Of a stretch of DNA of 20,000 nucleotides, positions 2,617-20,000 are shown in pieces. A program made the position numbers and the translations under genes. The notes under the pieces are model-generated. The model made no database searches and was not told where the DNA came from. It worked only from the letters and a program-made list of their open reading frames with translations. The stretch lies in the sequence record DRR723986_3005; one strand, given 5' to 3'. How positions within the stretch are numbered: position 1 is the stretch's first letter; each line of letters opens with the position of its first letter.

Positions 2617-3933
2617 TTACGGCGTTACGGTGCCAGCGGTTTTAGCCTTTGCCGCCCAAAGGATAGTCACCACGGTGGCCAAAACAAGCAGAATAAACGC
2701 TGTTTGATTCACAATTACCCAACCAAAATACCGTAGAATTGCTCCCGCCGCCAACGAAGCGATAGCGGAAGAACCAAATACCAGCATTTCATTCAACCCC
2801 TGCACACGGCCACGCTCGACGGTGGTATGTACTTTCGTTAGCAAGGTTGTGCCCCCTACATAGCAGAAGTTCCAGCCCAGCCCCAAGGCGATAAGCGCCA
2901 ATGAAAAATTGCCTAACTGAATACCCGACAACGCCGTAATAAACGCAATGGCAAAAAACGTATGGCCCGCAAACAAAATAGGCAAAACGCCAAACCTTAT
3001 GATGAGGCTGCCAGTAAACAAGCTTGGTAAAAACATTGCAATAACGTGAGCTGAAATAACCTTTGTGCTGGTGCTGCTGGAAAAGCCGCAAAAATCGACC
3101 ATTGCAATGGGTGTTGCCGTCATCACAAAAACCATCATGGCGTAACCAAGTGCGCCGTTTACAGCCGCGGCAACAAAGGCAGGCTGCTTTGCAATAACCA
3201 ACAAGGGCCGCGCTGTTTCCTGTACTTCAGCTGGGACATCATCGCCAGATGGAGGGCTTGCACAGTTAGAAACTGGTGTTTTTAAAAGCGACAATGGCAC
3301 CAAAGCCAAAACACCGACACAGGCCGTGAAAACAAAGGCCCCAACAAAAGTATAGGGCAACAGCGTGTCAATAAAAAAGCCGCTTCCAAACGGGGCAAGT
3401 AGTGCGGCAAAAATACCCCCAATAAGAACTAGCGAGATTGCTCGGGGCGCTTTGGTGGGACTAACGCTTTCACCAGCGGCAAACCGGTAATATTGCGCGC
3501 TTGCCTGAAACGGGCCGATAAAAAGCGTAGCAGCACAAAATAAAATAAAATTCTCGAAGTAAAGCCCGGAAGCGGCGATTAGAGCACCAAAAATACCGCT
3601 TAACGCACTGAGGATAAAAACGCGACGACGGGAATATTTTTGCATCAAAATTGACAACGGACCTGTCGAAAGCGCAACCACGATCATGCTCATAGACACA
3701 GGTAAGGTTGCCAGCGCCGGATCACCTGCGATCATACGGCCTGCCAACCCCGCAAAAGCAATAAACGTCATGCTGGTTGCGGTAAAACAGGCCTGAGATG
3801 CCATAAGCAAATAGACATTTGCGCCGGTGTTTTGGGTGGGCGCAGAAACAAGGCGCTCAGATGAAGCAGACGCAACTGCGCCAGATGTTTCTGGCAGCAA
3901 TTTTGACGATGCTTTTGATTTACCGTTAGACAT
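2617..3933 (-). CDS. MFS transporter
   Basis: About 12 hydrophobic segments; YRFAAGE, GLGWNFCYVGGTTLL and ERGRVQGLNE motifs typical of an MFS_1 subfamily. Confidence 0.88.
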   Translation of the reverse strand: MSNGKSKASSKLLPETSGAVASASSERLVSAPTQNTGANVYLLMASQACFTATSMTFIAFAGLAGRMIAGDPALATLPVSMSMIVVALSTGPLSILMQKYSRRRVFILSALSGIFGALIAASGLYFENFILFCAATLFIGPFQASAQYYRFAAGESVSPTKAPRAISLVLIGGIFAALLAPFGSGFFIDTLLPYTFVGAFVFTACVGVLALVPLSLLKTPVSNCASPPSGDDVPAEVQETARPLLVIAKQPAFVAAAVNGALGYAMMVFVMTATPIAMVDFCGFSSSTSTKVISAHVIAMFLPSLFTGSLIIRFGVLPILFAGHTFFAIAFITALSGIQLGNFSLALIALGLGWNFCYVGGTTLLTKVHTTVERGRVQGLNEMLVFGSSAIASLAAGAILRYFGWVIVNQTAFILLVLATVVTILWAAKAKTAGTVTP

Positions 3934-4043
3934 ACTTACCCCGAAAAACCCCGCTGCCGTACAGTACCATGGTTTTTGAGATTAGATGCAGTGATTTTTT
4001 GATGTTAGATCGCAAACAAATTATCAATGAAGACTGACTCAAA

Positions 4044-5648
4044 TCAGGCAGATTCCTGCTCTAACTTAACCCGAGATTTTGGAATGATGATCGTAAACTT
4101 CGTGCCGCTTTGATCGTTACTTTCAACTGTAATTTCGCCTTCGTGCATATCAACAAAAGCTTTCACCAAAGACAAACCAAGGCCTGTGCCTTCATGATTA
4201 CGGCTAAGGGCTGTCGAAGACCGGACAAAGGGCGAGAATATAATTTCTTGCTCTTCTTCAGGGATACCGATGCCTCGATCTTGTACGCTGATCTGAAGAC
4301 TACCGTCACTGTTCACCCCGGCTTCCAGCAACACATTCTTTGACCTTTCTGGCGTAAATTTAACTGCATTGGTCAATAAATTTAGAACAGACTGTTTTAA
4401 GCGGAGCCTGTCTCCATAGATAAGAGGCAACGACTCTGGAATTTGCAGATCAACGCCGATGTTCTTTTGAGATGCTTGGCCCGCAATCAGTGCCTGACTT
4501 TCGCGCAGCATACGCGGGACATCGACATATTCTTCTTCTATCTGAAACTGACCCGCTTCAATTTTGGCCAAATCAAGCACTTCACCCAAAACATCAGACA
4601 AATGCTCGCTGGAAGACCGAATATCCGTTAAATATTCACGGTATTTATCGTGACCAATAGGGCCAAACATTTGGTCGGACATGATGCTGGAAAAACCAAT
4701 AATGGCATTCAAAGGGGTGCGAAGCTCGTGGCTTACATTGGCCAAAAATACACTTTTAGCTCGGTTTGCAGCCTCTGCTTGCTCTTTGGTCAAAATTAAC
4801 TCAACTGATGTCTTACGAGCACGCTCCACCTCCTGCTCCAATTCCCAAGACCGTTTGCGCAAAGTCTCTTCTGATGACGAAAGTGCCTTGTTTGTAGATC
4901 GGTGGTTATCGAGCAGAACCTGCACTGCATCGAGCGAAAGATTAATTTGCTCCGCTAACATGCCCACTTCATCATTCTTGTGTCGCTTGTGAACGGTAAT
5001 GCGCTGCTCACCGGGGCGTTCAGGATCTATTTCAGATACTTCTTCCACAATTTGGGTAAGCGGTTTTGTAAGGCCTTGATGAAACGCAAAATACAAAAGC
5101 ATCACAAGCAGCATGTTGCGCACCAGACCCGACAAAAACGTTGTCGTGGCCCTTGCGAAAAAAGGTTGGAGACCGACGGCCCGGTCGATCACGACACGCA
5201 AACTACCCGGCCGTTCTGCCATAGAGTCTGGCAAGTTAAGCCGGTACTCATGAGTTGAAGTATCGTCAATTAGAACCCGAGCATAATTAACGCTGTTTGA
5301 ACTGAGCGAATTGGTATCCCTGCTGCTACCAGCCAGAACACTGCCTAAGTCATCCAATATCGCGGCTTCAGCAACATAATCGTAAACCATTAGGCCAGAG
5401 ACAACCTCTTGCGCTAGCTCGCTATCCAAAATTAAAACTGCGCGTGTTGCAGCGTTTTCTGCAACTTTCAGGCTTTCCTGCACCTTCTGGTCCAGAACCC
5501 CACCTTCTTCAAGGTAATCCAGATAAACTTGACCAGCAGACAGCACAAAACCAACAGCGAACGCGATTATCACCGCTGTTCGCGCCAACTTGAAGGAAAT
5601 TTTGTCGTTCCAGTTTAGTTTCAAACGGCTACCTTTTCGCCCACTCAA
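4044..5648 (-). CDS. Membrane-bound HAMP-domain sensor histidine kinase
   Basis: Two TM segments around a periplasmic region, a HAMP region (LTKPL...DEVGMLA), H-box SHELRTPLNAIIGF, N-box NLLTNAVKFT and G-boxes DRGIGI and GTGLGL. TTG start is uncertain. Confidence 0.93.
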   Translation of the reverse strand: MSGRKGSRLKLNWNDKISFKLARTAVIIAFAVGFVLSAGQVYLDYLEEGGVLDQKVQESLKVAENAATRAVLILDSELAQEVVSGLMVYDYVAEAAILDDLGSVLAGSSRDTNSLSSNSVNYARVLIDDTSTHEYRLNLPDSMAERPGSLRVVIDRAVGLQPFFARATTTFLSGLVRNMLLVMLLYFAFHQGLTKPLTQIVEEVSEIDPERPGEQRITVHKRHKNDEVGMLAEQINLSLDAVQVLLDNHRSTNKALSSSEETLRKRSWELEQEVERARKTSVELILTKEQAEAANRAKSVFLANVSHELRTPLNAIIGFSSIMSDQMFGPIGHDKYREYLTDIRSSSEHLSDVLGEVLDLAKIEAGQFQIEEEYVDVPRMLRESQALIAGQASQKNIGVDLQIPESLPLIYGDRLRLKQSVLNLLTNAVKFTPERSKNVLLEAGVNSDGSLQISVQDRGIGIPEEEQEIIFSPFVRSSTALSRNHEGTGLGLSLVKAFVDMHEGEITVESNDQSGTKFTIIIPKSRVKLEQESA

Positions 5649-5770
5649 GCATCACCTTATAAGCCTTGAGAAGAATAAAATTTCGGTTAATCTTAATCAT
5701 ATTTTGAGGGCTATTACCTAATTATTGAAAATCGACAATACCCATAGTTGTATTACACAATTTTAAGATT

Positions 5771-6190
5771 CTACCATTTACCGGTGTTTGGCATTGATAA
5801 CCATGGCTCCATCGGCTCTAAAGCCTCGCCTTTCTGTAATAATTCAATGGATATATTGTCTGGACTACGAATAAAGGCCATTCTACCATCGCGGGGCGGC
5901 CTATTGATTGTTACGCCTTGTTGCATAAGTGATTCGCAGAGCTCATATATATTATCAACCGCATAAGCCAAATGACCAAAGTTTCTGCCTTCCCCTAACT
6001 TTTCAGCGTCCCAATTGTAGGTCAATTCTACCTGCGCGTCTTCATCACCCGGTGCAGCAAGGAAAACAAGCGTGAACCGACCGGCCGGAACATCCTTGCG
6101 GCCAACCTCAACCAAACCAAACTTATTGCAGTAAAAATCAAGCGATGCTTCCAAGTCGGTTACACGAACCATAGTGTGAAGATATTTCAT
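5771..6190 (-). CDS. gloA: Lactoylglutathione lyase (glyoxalase I, VOC family)
   Basis: [21 protein letters not shown] and [22 protein letters not shown] motifs. Confidence 0.92.
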
Positions 6191-6242
6191 TATCTAACTT
6201 TCTATAATTTAACGACGTTCAACTACGCGTCAGATCAGATGT

Positions 6243-6716
6243 TCATCCAGCGAAAATTGCCGCAACCATGCGCTCAAGGTTGTCTCTGTCTACATCGTCA
6301 AAAGCGCCAAATTCGGTTGAATCTACATCCAGCACAGCTAATAACTTACCAGTTGAATCGACCACAGGCACCACAATCTCAGAATTGGTTCTACTGTCAC
6401 AGGCAATGTGATTTTTCACAGCGTGAACATCTTCAACTATTTGGGTTTCAAGGGTGGAGGCCGCGGTGCCGCATACCCCGCGCCCAAACTCAATTCTCAA
6501 ACACCCCAGCGTTCCCTGATAAGGCCCAACCACCAACTCATTGTTTTTGGTTTCGTCTACAATATAAAAGCCCGTCCAGAAAAACCGTTCTGGGAAAGCT
6601 TCCGCCAGCAAACATGAAATGGTGGCCATGCGTGCGGTTTGGTTTTCCTCACCGTCCAATACAGCGATAATTTGCCCGATTACAGTATCGTAAGCTGCCT
6701 GCTTATTCGTTGTCAT
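6243..6716 (-). CDS. GAF-domain protein, free methionine-(R)-sulfoxide reductase (MsrC/fRMsr-like)
   Basis: WTGFY, GPYQGTLGCLRI.FGRGVCG, HIACD and SEIVVP...LDVDS motifs. Start assumed at MTTNKQ (6716), overlapping the GNAT stop region. Confidence 0.85.
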   Translation of the reverse strand: MTTNKQAAYDTVIGQIIAVLDGEENQTARMATISCLLAEAFPERFFWTGFYIVDETKNNELVVGPYQGTLGCLRIEFGRGVCGTAASTLETQIVEDVHAVKNHIACDSRTNSEIVVPVVDSTGKLLAVLDVDSTEFGAFDDVDRDNLERMVAAIFAG

Positions 6717-17788: not shown

Positions 17789-17910
17789 AAATTCCTCCAG
17801 AGCATCAATGAATTGAAAATATTTTCAAAAATAGCCTAGCGGCGAATGGGTGGGCGCACAATCCCAAGCTGAAATGAGAAATAGTAATAACGCAAAGGCG
17901 ATGAGGGAAA

Positions 17911-17926
17911 GTGGTGGGCCCGGAGG
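17911..17926. repeat. 16-bp direct repeat of the tRNA 3' end (distal att core)
   Basis: GTGGTGGGCCCGGAGG is identical to 19970-19985; its reverse complement contains GGGCCCACCA. Confidence 0.9.
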
Positions 17927-17948
17927 CTCTTTACAAATCGTTATATTT

Positions 17949-17971
17949 CAATGGCTTACGTTGGATAACCT
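17949..17971. repeat. Left inner inverted repeat (IHF-like box plus TTGGATAACC)
   Basis: CAATGGCTTACGTTGGATAACCT versus the reverse complement of 19934-19956, CAATGACTTAGCTTGGCTAACCT: 19/23 identical by manual alignment. Confidence 0.7.
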
Positions 17972-18021
17972 TGTCAAAACCGCCATTATAATCATTAGAG
18001 AATATCGAACATTGGCTAACC

Positions 18022-19092
18022 CTAAACCAACCTCAATCCGTGAGGCATTAAGGCTTTCTCCTCAATAGGATAAATTTCACGCAGCTCTTCAACTCTCAAG
18101 TACAAAAGCTTAGCCATGTCTTCCATTGAATAATTTAAACTCTGCATATGCACTTTAAATATATTACTGAGGACCGTTGGTTCTTCAGGGGCAAAGTCAA
18201 GCTCTGGCGGTTCCTTGCGGCGATAGCCTGATCTGTTCATTTGAATCCATTGATATCTGGCCTGATTATAACTTATTGCTCCACATGACTGTGCGCAAAC
18301 GAGCAACGCGCCCATTGAAACCCGCCAAACTGGCTTCAATGCGGCAAGCTTCTTCAAGTTGAGATTCCGAGACAGCAAAGGGTATAGCTCATCCGGCGGA
18401 AGCAAAAGTGCACTGGCAAATGCATTCGCTTCATCTTCCATCTCTGGAGAAGGAATTTTATGCATAATGATATGCCCAAGTTCATGCGCAATTGTAAACC
18501 GCTGCCTGTCCGCAGGCTGGGCCTTATTTATAAAAATACAAGGTGGTGTGCCAGGTACATTGGATGTAAATCCATCCACAGCCAAATCGGAAAGATCACT
18601 GAATATCACTATGCACCCTGCCCGCTCGACCAATTCCACCAAGTTCCCTAGAGGCCCACTTGGTTGATGCCACATACGTCTTACAAGTGAGGCTATAGTT
18701 ACAGGTCCGTCATATTGGTCAACGTCAAGATGAGGAAGTTCTAGATCACTGTGCTGGTCTACAGACTGTAACAAACGTCGCACATGCAACAATTGAAGGT
18801 TTATTTTGGCCTCGAGTTTATTTTTCGCTTTCTGAGGAAGAGAAGACTTCTTTCGGTACTGCACGCTAATTGGCAATCCAACCATGTTATCCGGCGCACG
18901 AAATAAGTCCGTTGGATACCCCACGGCTTTGGCCAACTTAACTTCCACGTCCTCAGACGGCTCCAACAACCCGCTCTCATATTTCGAAATATTTGCTTGC
19001 GACAAGCCTGACGCTTTAGACAAATCAGATTGACTCATCCCCCGCGCCTGCCGAGACATTCTCAACAATCCAAAATTGAAAGATTTGGTCAT
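18022..19092 (-). CDS. XRE-family HTH fused to ImmA/IrrE (peptidase M78) zinc metallopeptidase; putative antitoxin/regulator
   Basis: N-terminal HTH (RQARGMSQSDLS..SGLSQANISKYESG); RQRFTIAHELGHIIMH (HExxH) followed by EDEANAFASALLLP. Confidence 0.93.
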   Translation of the reverse strand: MTKSFNFGLLRMSRQARGMSQSDLSKASGLSQANISKYESGLLEPSEDVEVKLAKAVGYPTDLFRAPDNMVGLPISVQYRKKSSLPQKAKNKLEAKINLQLLHVRRLLQSVDQHSDLELPHLDVDQYDGPVTIASLVRRMWHQPSGPLGNLVELVERAGCIVIFSDLSDLAVDGFTSNVPGTPPCIFINKAQPADRQRFTIAHELGHIIMHKIPSPEMEDEANAFASALLLPPDELYPLLSRNLNLKKLAALKPVWRVSMGALLVCAQSCGAISYNQARYQWIQMNRSGYRRKEPPELDFAPEEPTVLSNIFKVHMQSLNYSMEDMAKLLYLRVEELREIYPIEEKALMPHGLRLV

Positions 19093-19094
19093 TC

Positions 19095-19703
19095 CTAGTT
19101 AGATCCTTCACCCTCGTCCTCATCGGCTGCACGCTTGGGTGTAATTACTGGAGGCTTAGAGCCGACTTTTCTTTCACCATCAACTTCGTCTTCAGTGTCA
19201 TTCGGCAACTGCACAACATTGCCTTCATCACTCAACAGACTGAAACACCGAACAATGCTATCCCCGTTTCGTGCAATCACTAACACATCCTGAATCGACG
19301 CTTCAAGCGGCTTCTTCAAAACATATACGACTTCTAATCGGTGAACGGACGGGAGACCAAATAAATCTTGATCCTGATCATGGTAAGCAATCGCTAATTG
19401 GGTCGGAAAATTAGCCGTCAGACCACTTACTCCGCCTTTCTTAAAACGAAACAGGAGCGTACCCTTAACCAAATAACTAACGGTCAAAGGCTCATCCAGA
19501 ACTCTAATCTGCCTATTCGTAGAAAATCTCTCGTGCGCTTCAGTGCGCATAAATTCCCAAACTGCGTTGGCTCTACCTCTAGCAGTCCAATCAGGTTGTT
19601 TCATGTCCAGCCAACGCTGCCAAGACTTCATCACTATCGCGACTAGGTCCTCCCTAACAAACGCTAACTGATCCTTAATTTCATCATCACTGGGTAAACT
19701 CAA
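19095..19703 (-). CDS. Hypothetical protein, putative toxin/effector partner of the HTH-IrrE protein
   Basis: 202-aa ORF with TTG start and a strong AAAGGAG RBS (19711-19717); stop is 2 bp before the next ATG; acidic C-terminal tail. The function call is inferred from context. Confidence 0.75.
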   Translation of the reverse strand: MSLPSDDEIKDQLAFVREDLVAIVMKSWQRWLDMKQPDWTARGRANAVWEFMRTEAHERFSTNRQIRVLDEPLTVSYLVKGTLLFRFKKGGVSGLTANFPTQLAIAYHDQDQDLFGLPSVHRLEVVYVLKKPLEASIQDVLVIARNGDSIVRCFSLLSDEGNVVQLPNDTEDEVDGERKVGSKPPVITPKRAADEDEGEGSN

Positions 19704-19754
19704 AACTTAACTCCTTTACTCCATCTGGAATACTCGCCCGCACCAATACATATG

Positions 19755-19783
19755 AGGATAGCAAATCCGATTTGCAAAATCAA
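19755..19783 (-). promoter_or_regulatory. Sigma70-type promoter of the cargo operon with a palindromic operator candidate in the spacer
   Basis: Minus strand reads TTGATT-N17-TATCCT with an extended TGn before the -10. The spacer contains GCAAATC-C-GATTTGC (19761-19775). Confidence 0.6.
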
Positions 19784-19883
19784 CTATATTTTATTCATGA
19801 AATTATTCACGAGGAGCTAAGACAATGTTTCAAAACGTCATTTTTTGGGTACGATTTTATGATAAGGTCTAGCCACAGCCGTT

Positions 19884-19896
19884 TAAGCCCTTGATT
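19884..19896 (-). promoter_or_regulatory. IHF consensus site
   Basis: Minus strand AATCAAGGGCTTA is a full match to WATCAANNNNTTR, near the att site. Confidence 0.55.
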
Positions 19897-19905
19897 TTGC
19901 ACCAC

Positions 19906-19944
19906 AAAAAAAAGGCCAATTGGCTAACCTTTGAGGTTAGCCAA
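19906..19944 (-). terminator. Hairpin plus U-tract downstream of the tRNA (possible intrinsic terminator; also made of the arm-like repeat)
   Basis: Perfect 11-bp stem TTGGCTAACCT/AGGTTAGCCAA (19920-19944), followed on the minus strand by TTGGCC and T8. Confidence 0.5.
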
Positions 19945-19970
19945 GCTAAGTCATTGTTTTTAAAGGATTG

Positions 19971-20000
19971 TGGTGGGCCCGGAGGGACTCGAACCCCCGA
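19971..20000 (-). tRNA. tRNA gene, 3' 30 nt only (anticodon outside the window; acceptor stem compatible with tRNA-Ile2/Met CAT, unconfirmed)
   Basis: Reverse complement TCGGGGGTTCGAGTCCCTCCGGGCCCACCA shows a T-arm with GTTCGA loop, the acceptor 3' strand and an encoded CCA. Confidence 0.92.

What the first reader, a model, noticed from the sequence alone, without database searches (positions are those of the whole stretch)
17911..19985. Integrase-less 2059-bp cassette integrated at a tRNA 3' end
Seen: GTGGTGGGCCCGGAGG occurs at 17911-17926 and at 19970-19985, where it overlaps the tRNA 3' end. Between the copies are only two genes and short non-coding ends, with no room for an integrase and no visible remnant of one. 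Established: duplication of a tRNA 3' end is the footprint of tyrosine-recombinase integration. Inference: this is a minimal, non-autonomous cassette that keeps its cis recombination signals and may be moved in trans, making the tRNA a swappable slot for defence-type cargo.
Basis: partly seen in the sequence, partly recalled or inferred. Interest (0 to 1): 0.8.

Follow-up and report, generated by a model that had tools for sequence, protein, structure and literature searches.

The report
Integrase-less defence islet at a tRNA
A 2-kb piece of foreign DNA carrying a two-gene toxin-antitoxin type phage-defence module sits at the end of a tRNA gene between two copies of the tRNA's last 16 bases, with no integrase of its own; this is a familiar kind of decayed or hitch-hiking island, not a new kind of element.

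Summary
The exact 16-mer occurs only at 17911-17926 and 19970-19985. The right copy is the 3' end of a minus-strand tRNA(CAT) cut by the window end.

The 2043 bp between the copies hold two genes. One is an HTH + M78 peptidase protein matching PADLOC RmrA (6.8e-59). The other, upstream, is a 202-aa partner with no Pfam or PADLOC family. This is a RosmerTA-like pair. The same pair occurs on plasmids and in a phage.

The segment is foreign:
- It has lower GC than its flanks.
- It is absent from all 18 related loci.
- DNA outside the distal copy resembles the native tRNA trailer of the closest relative, while DNA next to the tRNA does not.

No integrase or remnant of one was found.

An element that keeps attL and attR but has lost its integrase is already defined in the literature as a cis-mobilizable element (CIME). 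Present mobility is untested. A 10-mer recurring in both non-coding ends is the only hint that cis sites are retained. I rate it a new member of a known kind, of modest interest.

The parts
17789..17910 (.). Native chromosomal DNA between the S10 peptidase start codon and the distal repeat copy. It comprises the peptidase upstream region plus about 40 nt that resemble a native tRNA trailer.
   Evidence: 17789-17880 aligns with the S10 upstream region of L001 (score 50 against 21.1 +/- 3.9; 0 of 1000 shuffles reach it). 17851-17910 aligns with the DNA just 3' of the L001 tRNA (25 against 16.0 +/- 2.7; 5 of 1000).
17911..17926 (.). Distal copy of the 16-bp core. This is the displaced tRNA 3' end, the attR-like junction.
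   Evidence: Exact repeat. Similarity to the tRNA stops here: the inner DNA 17927-17990 compared with the tRNA body is matched by 146 of 1000 shuffles.
17927..18021 (.). Left non-coding end of the insert (95 bp). It carries two direct copies of the 10-mer TTGGCTAACC, at 17961-17970 (1 mismatch) and 18012-18021. No terminator-like structure follows rmrA.
   Evidence: motif. (fold z = +1.11; 179 of 200 shuffles fold at least as well).
18022..19092 (-). rmrA-like gene, 356 aa: an N-terminal XRE-type HTH and an ImmA/IrrE (M78) zinc peptidase with the HELGH motif. Predicted antitoxin and regulator.
   Evidence: Pfam HTH_3 3.3e-13 (residues 10-63) and Peptidase_M78 4.1e-20 (156-263). Fourteen PADLOC RmrA models match, best 6.8e-59. 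PHROG 2439, 7.9e-86. H203, E204 and H207 are invariant in 52 sequences.
19095..19703 (-). rmrT-position gene, 202 aa, with a TTG start 7 nt after AAGGAG. Predicted toxin or effector of an uncharacterised family.
   Evidence: No Pfam, PADLOC or NCBIfam match (0 of 68 family members match PADLOC). PHROG 15813, unknown function, 1.9e-19. 353 clusters at E <= 1e-3. It always sits directly upstream of an HTH/ImmA-type gene in the 6 of 8 hit loci inspected. AlphaFold model pLDDT 88.6.
19704..19969 (.). Right non-coding end of the insert (266 bp), holding three features.
- The 15-bp palindrome GCAAATC-C-GATTTGC (19761-19775) lies between a -35-like TTGATT (19783-19778) and a -10-like TATCCT (19760-19755) on the minus strand. 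This is a candidate promoter and RmrA operator.
- An 11-bp-stem hairpin (19920-19944) is made of two inverted TTGGCTAACC copies.
- It is followed on the minus strand by T8, which makes it terminator-like for the tRNA.
   Evidence: Sequence read. Half-site positions. Hairpin I14. Fold -24.8 kcal/mol, z = -3.42, 0 of 200 shuffles. The promoter call is by eye (8 of 12 consensus positions) and the scan tool did not list it.
19970..19985 (.). Proximal copy of the 16-bp core, forming the present 3' end of the tRNA (attL-like junction).
19971..20000 (-). Last 30 nt of a tRNA(CAT) gene (T arm, acceptor 3' strand, discriminator, CCA). The rest lies beyond the window.
   Evidence: 100% identity over 32 nt to the L001 tRNA 5537-5613. 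S. meliloti tRNA(CAT) 20013-20088 of L025.

Best explanation
A 2.04-kb foreign segment was inserted by site-specific recombination into the 3' end of a tRNA(CAT) gene. The insert supplied a new copy of the last 16 nt, so the tRNA stays intact. The original 3' end was pushed 2059 bp away and still abuts the tRNA's native trailer and the S10 peptidase promoter.

The segment now carries only a RosmerTA-like operon (rmrT-like gene, then rmrA) and short ends, with no recombinase. That makes it a CIME-like or decayed genomic islet. It most likely derives from a somewhat larger integrase-bearing element, or it arrived with help from one.

How the cargo probably works is inferred from the RosmerTA literature. 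RmrA neutralises the partner protein. Through its HTH it represses the operon at the palindrome in the promoter spacer. Phage infection upsets this balance and frees the effector, which stops growth. The effector's target is unknown.

Shown here: the repeat, the tRNA identity, the foreignness of the segment, the domain content, the conserved gene pairing, and the absence of an integrase in the insert. Inferred: the recombination mechanism, the origin by decay, toxin-antitoxin behaviour, defence and autoregulation.
For: - **Repeat and tRNA identity:**
- **Insertion rather than fixed sequence, composition:** GC is 0.42-0.47 across the insert against 0.50-0.58 in the flanking genes.
- **Absence from relatives:** the cargo has no hit in 18 of 18 related loci.
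- **Closest relative has no repeat:** L001 (S10 peptidase 81% identical) has the same tRNA and no second core copy, even at 3 mismatches.
- **Flank comparison:** the distal flank matches the L001 tRNA trailer (5 of 1000 shuffles). The proximal flank does not (909 of 1000).
- **Same site used in another alphaproteobacterium:** S. meliloti carries a degenerate direct copy of the same tRNA end 206 bp from the gene. Its similarity to the tRNA ends at the same position.
- **Cargo identity:**
- **Conserved gene pair:** present on 2 plasmids and in 1 phage, with 3 further plasmid-collection records.
- **Integrases occur next to the module elsewhere:** a tyrosine recombinase in Polaromonas pH1NP1 and IntS fragments in Klebsiella aerogenes.
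- **No integrase here:**
- **Literature:** CIME definition in PMC6323972 and PMC5704250; RosmerTA in PMC10440598 and bioRxiv 10.1101/2022.05.11.491447 (passages read in each).
Against: - No truly empty site in a close relative was available. L001 is only 81% identical in the neighbouring protein and has two S9 peptidase genes between the tRNA and the S10 gene, so the flank comparison rests on about 40 nt.
- No pseudogene debris of an integrase or other island genes is left. A decay origin does not predict this. It would equally fit an element that was always minimal.
- The partner protein matches no known RmrT model.
- The partner protein has R where 65 of 68 relatives have W (position 152), and G where 49 of 68 have D (position 91). 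It may not be an active toxin.
- Everything beyond the tRNA lies outside the window and was not seen.
Confidence: 0.65

Rival explanations
1. The segment is a functional, minimal non-autonomous integrative cassette. It keeps a complete attP-equivalent (core plus arm sites). It is excised and integrated in trans by a tyrosine integrase encoded elsewhere, so the tRNA acts as an exchangeable slot for defence cargo.
For: - The 10-mer TTGGCTAACC (1 mismatch allowed) has 5 sites in 20 kb, and 4 of them lie in the 361 bp of non-coding ends, two on each side of the core.
- It is not a host repeat: there are 3 single exact copies across the 24 fetched loci.
- This layout resembles arm-type sites on both arms of an attP.
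- The insert is clean: 82% is coding and no gene debris remains.
- It brings its own terminator-like hairpin for the tRNA.
Against: - No integrase with this specificity was seen.
- No second genome shows the same ends with other cargo, or the same cassette elsewhere. DNA of the ends has no match in the plasmid or phage collections.
- The closest cargo proteins are 54% and 81% identical.
- The module is not repeat-bounded in 0 of 5 other loci.
- Two of the four motif copies are simply the two arms of a hairpin.
- The arms do not convincingly resemble those at the S. meliloti site (50 of 1000 and 974 of 1000 shuffles).
- The element has no transfer function of its own.
Confidence: 0.2
2. The 16-bp repeat is not a recombination footprint. 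The module arrived by another route, for example homologous recombination of a larger imported fragment or illegitimate insertion. The distal 16-mer is then a chance or older tRNA-end fragment.
For: - The core is short (16 bp), and only one relative with the tRNA could be compared.
- tRNA-end fragments from older events do occur near this tRNA in S. meliloti without any gene between them.
Against: - An exact 16-mer duplicate has a chance expectation of 0.01 per window.
- It is in direct orientation and brackets exactly the low-GC foreign segment.
- Its outer flank matches a native trailer.
Confidence: 0.08

Closest known systems
Cis-mobilizable elements (CIMEs), i.e. decayed ICE/IME/island remnants that keep attL and attR (PMC6323972, PMC5704250; passages read)
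   Same: Flanked by direct repeats made from the 3' end of the target tRNA gene. No integrase, excisionase or transfer genes inside. Carries accessory cargo.
   Different: - Described CIMEs are mostly from Streptococcus and Firmicutes, and their descent from known ICEs or IMEs is documented.
- Here no parent element, cognate integrase or accretion partner is known.
- At 2 kb with two genes it is at the small end, and it shows no decay debris.
RosmerTA (RmrT/RmrA) toxin-antitoxin type anti-phage systems (bioRxiv 10.1101/2022.05.11.491447; PMC10440598; passages read)
   Same: A two-gene operon. The antitoxin-type protein has an XRE HTH and an ImmA/IrrE zinc peptidase, matching RmrA models strongly. 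The partner gene lies directly upstream, the 'toxin first' order reported as common for this node. The module is found on phages and plasmids.
   Different: - The partner protein matches none of the PADLOC RmrT models (0 of 68 family members) and no Pfam family.
- Its model has only weak resemblance to the restriction-endonuclease-like fold (no match at E <= 0.001).
- Neither toxicity nor defence has been tested.
tRNA-integrated genomic islands and tycheposon-type elements with tyrosine recombinases (bioRxiv 10.1101/2020.12.28.424599; passages read)
   Same: Integration at a tRNA 3' end that leaves partial-tRNA repeats. Defence or adaptive cargo. That paper reports remnants with partial tRNAs in marine bacteria.
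   Different: No recombinase, replication or packaging gene is present, and there is a single islet rather than an island array.

Membership tests
RosmerTA | RmrA: an antitoxin-type protein with an HTH and an ImmA/IrrE (M78) zinc peptidase domain | tested here: met
   Pfam HTH_3 and Peptidase_M78. Fourteen PADLOC RmrA models match, best 6.8e-59 over residues 9-340. The HExxH residues are invariant in the family alignment.
RosmerTA | A partner gene adjacent to rmrA in the same operon | tested here: met
   The genes lie on the same strand with a 2-nt gap. The same pairing is seen in all 6 hit loci inspected, of 8 hits.
RosmerTA | The partner belongs to a recognised RmrT family | tested here: not met
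   No PADLOC match for the window protein or for any of 68 family members. No Pfam or NCBIfam match. RmrT proteins are described as diverse (PMC10440598), so this weakens membership without excluding it. DefenseFinder models could not be searched.
RosmerTA | Toxicity neutralised by RmrA, and protection against phages | not testable with these tools
   These need experiments.
CIME (cis-mobilizable element) | Bounded by attL and attR direct repeats at a site-specific integration target | tested here: met
   An exact 16-bp direct repeat of the tRNA 3' end brackets a foreign segment. That the repeats are functional att sites is inferred, not shown.
CIME (cis-mobilizable element) | Lacks integration and transfer genes | tested here: met
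   Only two genes, neither a recombinase or relaxase. No remnants in the ends.
CIME (cis-mobilizable element) | Derived from an ICE or IME by decay, and mobilisable by accretion with or in trans from a related element | not testable with these tools
   No parent element or cognate integrase was found. The genome outside the window was not available.
Autonomous tRNA-integrating genomic island or prophage | Encodes its own tyrosine or serine recombinase next to the att site | tested here: not met
   No recombinase domain in 15 large ORFs of the window or in the two cargo proteins. In the cassette ends all tblastn hits with three integrase sequences from L020 and L024 have E >= 22.
IS or MITE-type transposable element | Terminal inverted repeats with a target-site duplication, with or without a transposase | tested here: not met
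   A 15-nt imperfect inverted pair exists (18012-18026 and 19930-19944, 87%). The bases outside it do not match each other (read). There is no transposase. The 16-bp duplication is a tRNA end, not a short target-site duplication.

The most novel reading that the evidence does not exclude
The insert is a live miniature integrative cassette. It would consist of a compact attP-equivalent of about 160 bp (the core plus TTGGCTAACC arm sites on both sides) wrapped around a single defence operon. An integrase encoded elsewhere would excise and insert it in trans, so the tRNA(CAT) 3' end would serve as an exchangeable slot for defence modules in marine Alphaproteobacteria. Its cargo would add a new, uncharacterised effector family to RosmerTA.
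Probability: 0.15. Interest if true: 0.6.

Novelty: new member of a known kind. Interest (0 to 1): 0.35.

Why it matters
If it is only a remnant, it is one more example of how defence modules end up as tiny islets at tRNA genes after their vehicles decay. That is useful for annotation but not surprising.

Two points deserve modest follow-up.
- The partner of RmrA belongs to a family of about 350 clusters that sits next to RmrA-type genes on plasmids, in a phage and on chromosomes. The defence-system models searched here do not cover it. A cheap toxicity and defence assay could add an effector type to RosmerTA.
- The shared 10-mer in both ends offers a concrete, testable candidate for retained recombination signals. 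This could show whether such integrase-less islets are still exchangeable.

Tried and rejected
- **tRNA in the window:** ARAGORN and Rfam found nothing because the gene is cut at the window end. This was solved through L001 and S. meliloti.
- **Empty site in relatives:** the peptidase-anchored scan gave 18 loci. ARAGORN was run on 10 of the 18 and found this tRNA only in L001. The core 15-mer was searched in all 18 and found in 1. L001 has two S9 peptidase genes in the interval, so no clean empty site exists. S9 genes are present in 2 of 18 loci.
- **Cargo in relatives:** none.
- **DNA of the insert against plasmids and phages:** only coding matches in rmrA and the tRNA end.
- **Integrase remnants:** none.
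- **Direct repeats around the module in other loci:** 0 of 5.
- **Shared att arms with the S. meliloti site:** marginal or absent. Proximal flanks give 50 of 1000 shuffles; inner-left arms give 974 of 1000. The claim was dropped.
- **The distal repeat as a decayed longer tRNA copy:** not supported (146 of 1000 shuffles).
- **Function of the 202-aa protein, sequence searches:** Pfam, PADLOC, NCBIfam and the PDB sequence search gave nothing.
- **Function of the 202-aa protein, fold searches:** no match at E <= 0.001. A weak recurring theme of restriction-endonuclease-like folds appeared (TM <= 0.43). The canonical acidic motif could not be placed, so no nuclease call is made.
- **Protein atlas:** does not hold the sequence or its closest homologue.
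- **Complex prediction of RmrT with RmrA:** tool unavailable.
- **Integron cassette and IS/MITE readings:** rejected (see the membership test).
Full report
**1. Observation**

The 16-mer GTGGTGGGCCCGGAGG occurs exactly twice in the window, at 17911-17926 and 19970-19985. There are no further sites even with two mismatches allowed. The chance expectation is 0.01, and 0 of 200 shuffles gave two sites. With two mismatches the repeat is 21 nt long.

ARAGORN and Rfam find no tRNA in the window. The gene runs off the window end, so only its last 30 nt (19971-20000, minus strand) are present.

A scan of genome contigs with the neighbouring S10 peptidase gave 18 loci. The closest is L001, from an alphaproteobacterial MAG, with the peptidase 81% identical. 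It carries a complete tRNA with anticodon CAT at 5537-5613. Its last 32 nt are identical to window 19969-20000. A Sinorhizobium meliloti tRNA(CAT) also matches.

ARAGORN calls the tRNA Met. From recall, its C4 and C5 acceptor bases look more like tRNA-Ile2(CAU). I did not test this.

On the tRNA strand the repeat covers 4 nt of the T stem, the acceptor 3' strand, the discriminator, CCA and one trailer base.

**2. What lies between the copies**

There are 2043 bp between the copies. They contain two minus-strand genes separated by 2 nt, a 95-bp left end and a 266-bp right end.

The 356-aa protein (18022-19092):
- It has an XRE-type HTH (3.3e-13) and an ImmA/IrrE M78 peptidase domain (4.1e-20).
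- It matches 14 PADLOC RmrA models, best 6.8e-59.
- It matches PHROG 2439 at 7.9e-86.
- It matches the NCBIfam spr1629 repressor/antitoxin family, but below that family's cut-off (113 bits against 335).
- Its HExxH residues are invariant among 52 aligned relatives.

The 202-aa protein (19095-19703; TTG start preceded by AAGGAG):
- It has no Pfam, PADLOC or NCBIfam match.
- It matches only PHROG 15813, of unknown function (1.9e-19).
- An exhaustive search found 353 clusters at E <= 1e-3, nearly all about 200 aa long.
- None of 68 aligned members (the query plus 67 of the 150 listed hits) matches a PADLOC model.
- None matches a Pfam family credibly. Three families each hit a single member, at E above 0.003.

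**3. The gene pair is a conserved module**

tblastn found the 202-aa protein in 7 records of the plasmid collection and 1 phage. I inspected 6 of these 8 hits. In every one, an XRE or ImmA/IrrE gene of about 355 aa follows directly; in the fragmented Klebsiella assembly it is an HTH fragment.

| Record |
|---|
| Roseicitreum pRA04 |
| Polaromonas pH1NP1 |
| Acinetobacter phage ABMM1 |
| Rhizobium pRLG203 |
| Devosia |
| Klebsiella aerogenes |

For the two Acinetobacter records I did not fetch, one search shows an ImmA/IrrE gene beside the hit.

RosmerTA is described as a Zn-peptidase antitoxin with a toxin of unknown function (bioRxiv 10.1101/2022.05.11.491447, passages read). RmrA is reported to pair with diverse RmrT toxins, often toxin first, and a phage-borne system was validated (PMC10440598, passages read). 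The cargo is therefore a RosmerTA-like pair with an effector family not covered by the models I could search.

The AlphaFold model of the effector is confident (pLDDT 88.6, pTM 0.78). Fold searches give no match at E <= 0.001. They show only a weak, recurrent restriction-endonuclease-like theme.

Conserved residues are mostly basic: R42, R44, R86, K88, K89 and R145. Also conserved are N98, T101 and Y127, and three acidic positions (50, 109 and 124). I could not place a canonical PD-(D/E)XK motif, so the target remains unknown.

**4. The segment is an insertion**

- **Composition:** GC is 0.42-0.47 across the insert and 0.50-0.58 in the neighbouring genes.
- **Absence from relatives:** neither cargo protein nor cassette DNA is present in any of the 18 related loci.
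- **No repeat in the closest relative:** L001 has the tRNA but no second copy of the core, even at 3 mismatches.
- **Distal flank:** the 60 nt outside the distal copy (17851-17910) align with the DNA just 3' of the L001 tRNA. The score is 25 against 16.0 +/- 2.7, reached by 5 of 1000 shuffles.
- **Proximal flank:** the 60 nt next to the present tRNA end, inside the insert, do not align with it. The score is 14 against 17.3 +/- 3.6, reached by 909 of 1000 shuffles.
- **Peptidase side:** the remaining native DNA down to the peptidase start aligns with the L001 S10 upstream region (0 of 1000 shuffles).

So the distal copy still abuts native trailer DNA, as expected for the displaced original tRNA end.

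Caveats:
- The comparison rests on about 40 nt and one relative.
- L001 and L002 have two S9 peptidase genes between these points, found in 2 of 18 loci. The interval has therefore been rearranged independently in these lineages.

In S. meliloti the same tRNA end has a degenerate direct copy 206 bp away. That copy's similarity to the tRNA stops at the same position as in the window. TA modules and an IS lie beyond it. This tRNA end therefore collects integration footprints in another alphaproteobacterium as well.

**5. No integrase**

- None of 15 large ORFs in the window has a recombinase domain, and neither do the two cargo proteins.
- Six stop-to-stop frames from the two ends gave no Pfam match of interest.
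- tblastn with three integrase sequences from L020 and L024 gave only E >= 22 in the ends.
- Elsewhere the module can lie beside integrases: a divergent tyrosine recombinase 146 bp upstream in Polaromonas pH1NP1 and IntS fragments in Klebsiella. A slightly larger parent of the form tRNA-int-rmrTA is therefore plausible.

**6. Features of the ends**

- **The 10-mer TTGGCTAACC.** Allowing one mismatch it has 5 sites in the window, against 1.46 expected; 5 of 200 shuffles reach five. Four of the five lie in the 361 bp of non-coding ends. Two are direct copies on the left (17961-17970 and 18012-18021). Two are inverted copies on the right (19920-19929 and 19935-19944).
- **Not a host repeat.** Only 3 single exact copies occur across the 24 fetched loci.
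- **The right-hand pair forms a hairpin.** It has an 11-bp stem and is followed by T8 on the tRNA strand (-24.8 kcal/mol, z = -3.42). This is terminator-like for the tRNA, although the scan tool did not list it.
- **The left end has no stable structure**. The operon may read through into the S10 peptidase gene.
- **Candidate promoter and operator.** By eye, the palindrome GCAAATC-C-GATTTGC (19761-19775) lies in a 17-nt spacer between weak -35-like and -10-like hexamers upstream of rmrT. It is a candidate RmrA operator.

The motif on both ends is the only positive hint that recombination signals are retained. It could equally be a terminator arm plus relics.

**7. Interpretation**

The best reading is a small foreign islet that entered by site-specific recombination at the tRNA 3' end and now lacks a recombinase. 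[quoted passage not shown] Such elements arise by decay of ICEs or IMEs and can be mobilised by accretion (PMC5704250, PMC6323972; passages read). Partial-tRNA-flanked remnants are also reported in marine bacteria (bioRxiv 10.1101/2020.12.28.424599; passages read).

It is neither shown nor excluded.
- Against it: there are no near-identical copies of the cargo. The best RmrT match is 54% and the best RmrA match is 81%. No matching ends are found elsewhere. The module is not repeat-bounded in any of 5 other loci.
- For it: the clean architecture and the shared 10-mers.

**8. Limits**

- The contigs of the closest homologues could not be read. One is a 3308-bp Kordiimonadaceae contig that appears to hold both genes; I judge this from the equal contig length, and did not verify it.
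- Supplementary tables were not consulted. Those of the NetFlax paper might already list this effector family.

**9. Verdict**

The finding is a new member of known kinds: a CIME-like islet carrying a RosmerTA-like module. Interest is 0.35.

Noticed in passing
window 19095-19703 (residues 152 and 91 of the 202-aa protein): The window's effector has R where 65 of 68 aligned relatives have W (position 152). It has G where 49 of 68 have D (position 91). This may be an attenuated or inactivated toxin.
   Followed up: partly
window 17961-17970, 18012-18021, 19920-19929, 19935-19944: Four of the five window sites of TTGGCTAACC (1 mismatch allowed) cluster in the two non-coding ends of the insert. 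They could be arm-type recombinase sites, or a terminator arm plus relics.
   Followed up: partly
window 19755-19783: The perfect 7-1-7 palindrome GCAAATC-C-GATTTGC lies in the 17-nt spacer of a weak promoter-like pair of hexamers upstream of rmrT. A related half-site, GATTTTGC, is at 19893. It is a candidate operator for the RmrA HTH.
   Followed up: no
window 17900-18030: No terminator-like structure follows rmrA (fold z = +1.11). Transcription of the inserted operon may run into the S10 peptidase gene on the same strand.
   Followed up: no
L025 (S. meliloti CP090106.1) 19797-19822 and 20003-20028: A degenerate direct repeat of the same tRNA(CAT) 3' end lies 206 bp from the gene, with no gene in between. 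The intervening DNA holds a T-arm-like fragment of another tRNA. BrnT/CopG and RelE/HTH toxin-antitoxin pairs and an IS630 lie beyond it. The record is labelled pSymB, but it is 3.7 Mb long and carries rpoD and dnaG, so it looks like the chromosome.
   Followed up: partly
L001 5719-9813; L002 5741-9841: Two tandem S9-type peptidase genes sit upstream of the S10 peptidase gene in the two closest relatives only (2 of 18 loci). In L001 they lie between the tRNA(CAT) and the S10 gene. The window lacks them.
   Followed up: partly
proteins P0003/P0155 compared with window 18022-19703: In the closest pair, from a Kordiimonadaceae MAG, RmrA is 70% identical to the window's but the effector only 54%. 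The effector evolves faster than its antitoxin.
   Followed up: no
L020 (Polaromonas pH1NP1) 3866-6691: A tyrosine recombinase gene lies divergently 146 bp upstream of the homologous two-gene module, next to a methyltransferase and a PDDEXK nuclease gene. It may be a model for an integrase-bearing parent of the window's islet.
   Followed up: no
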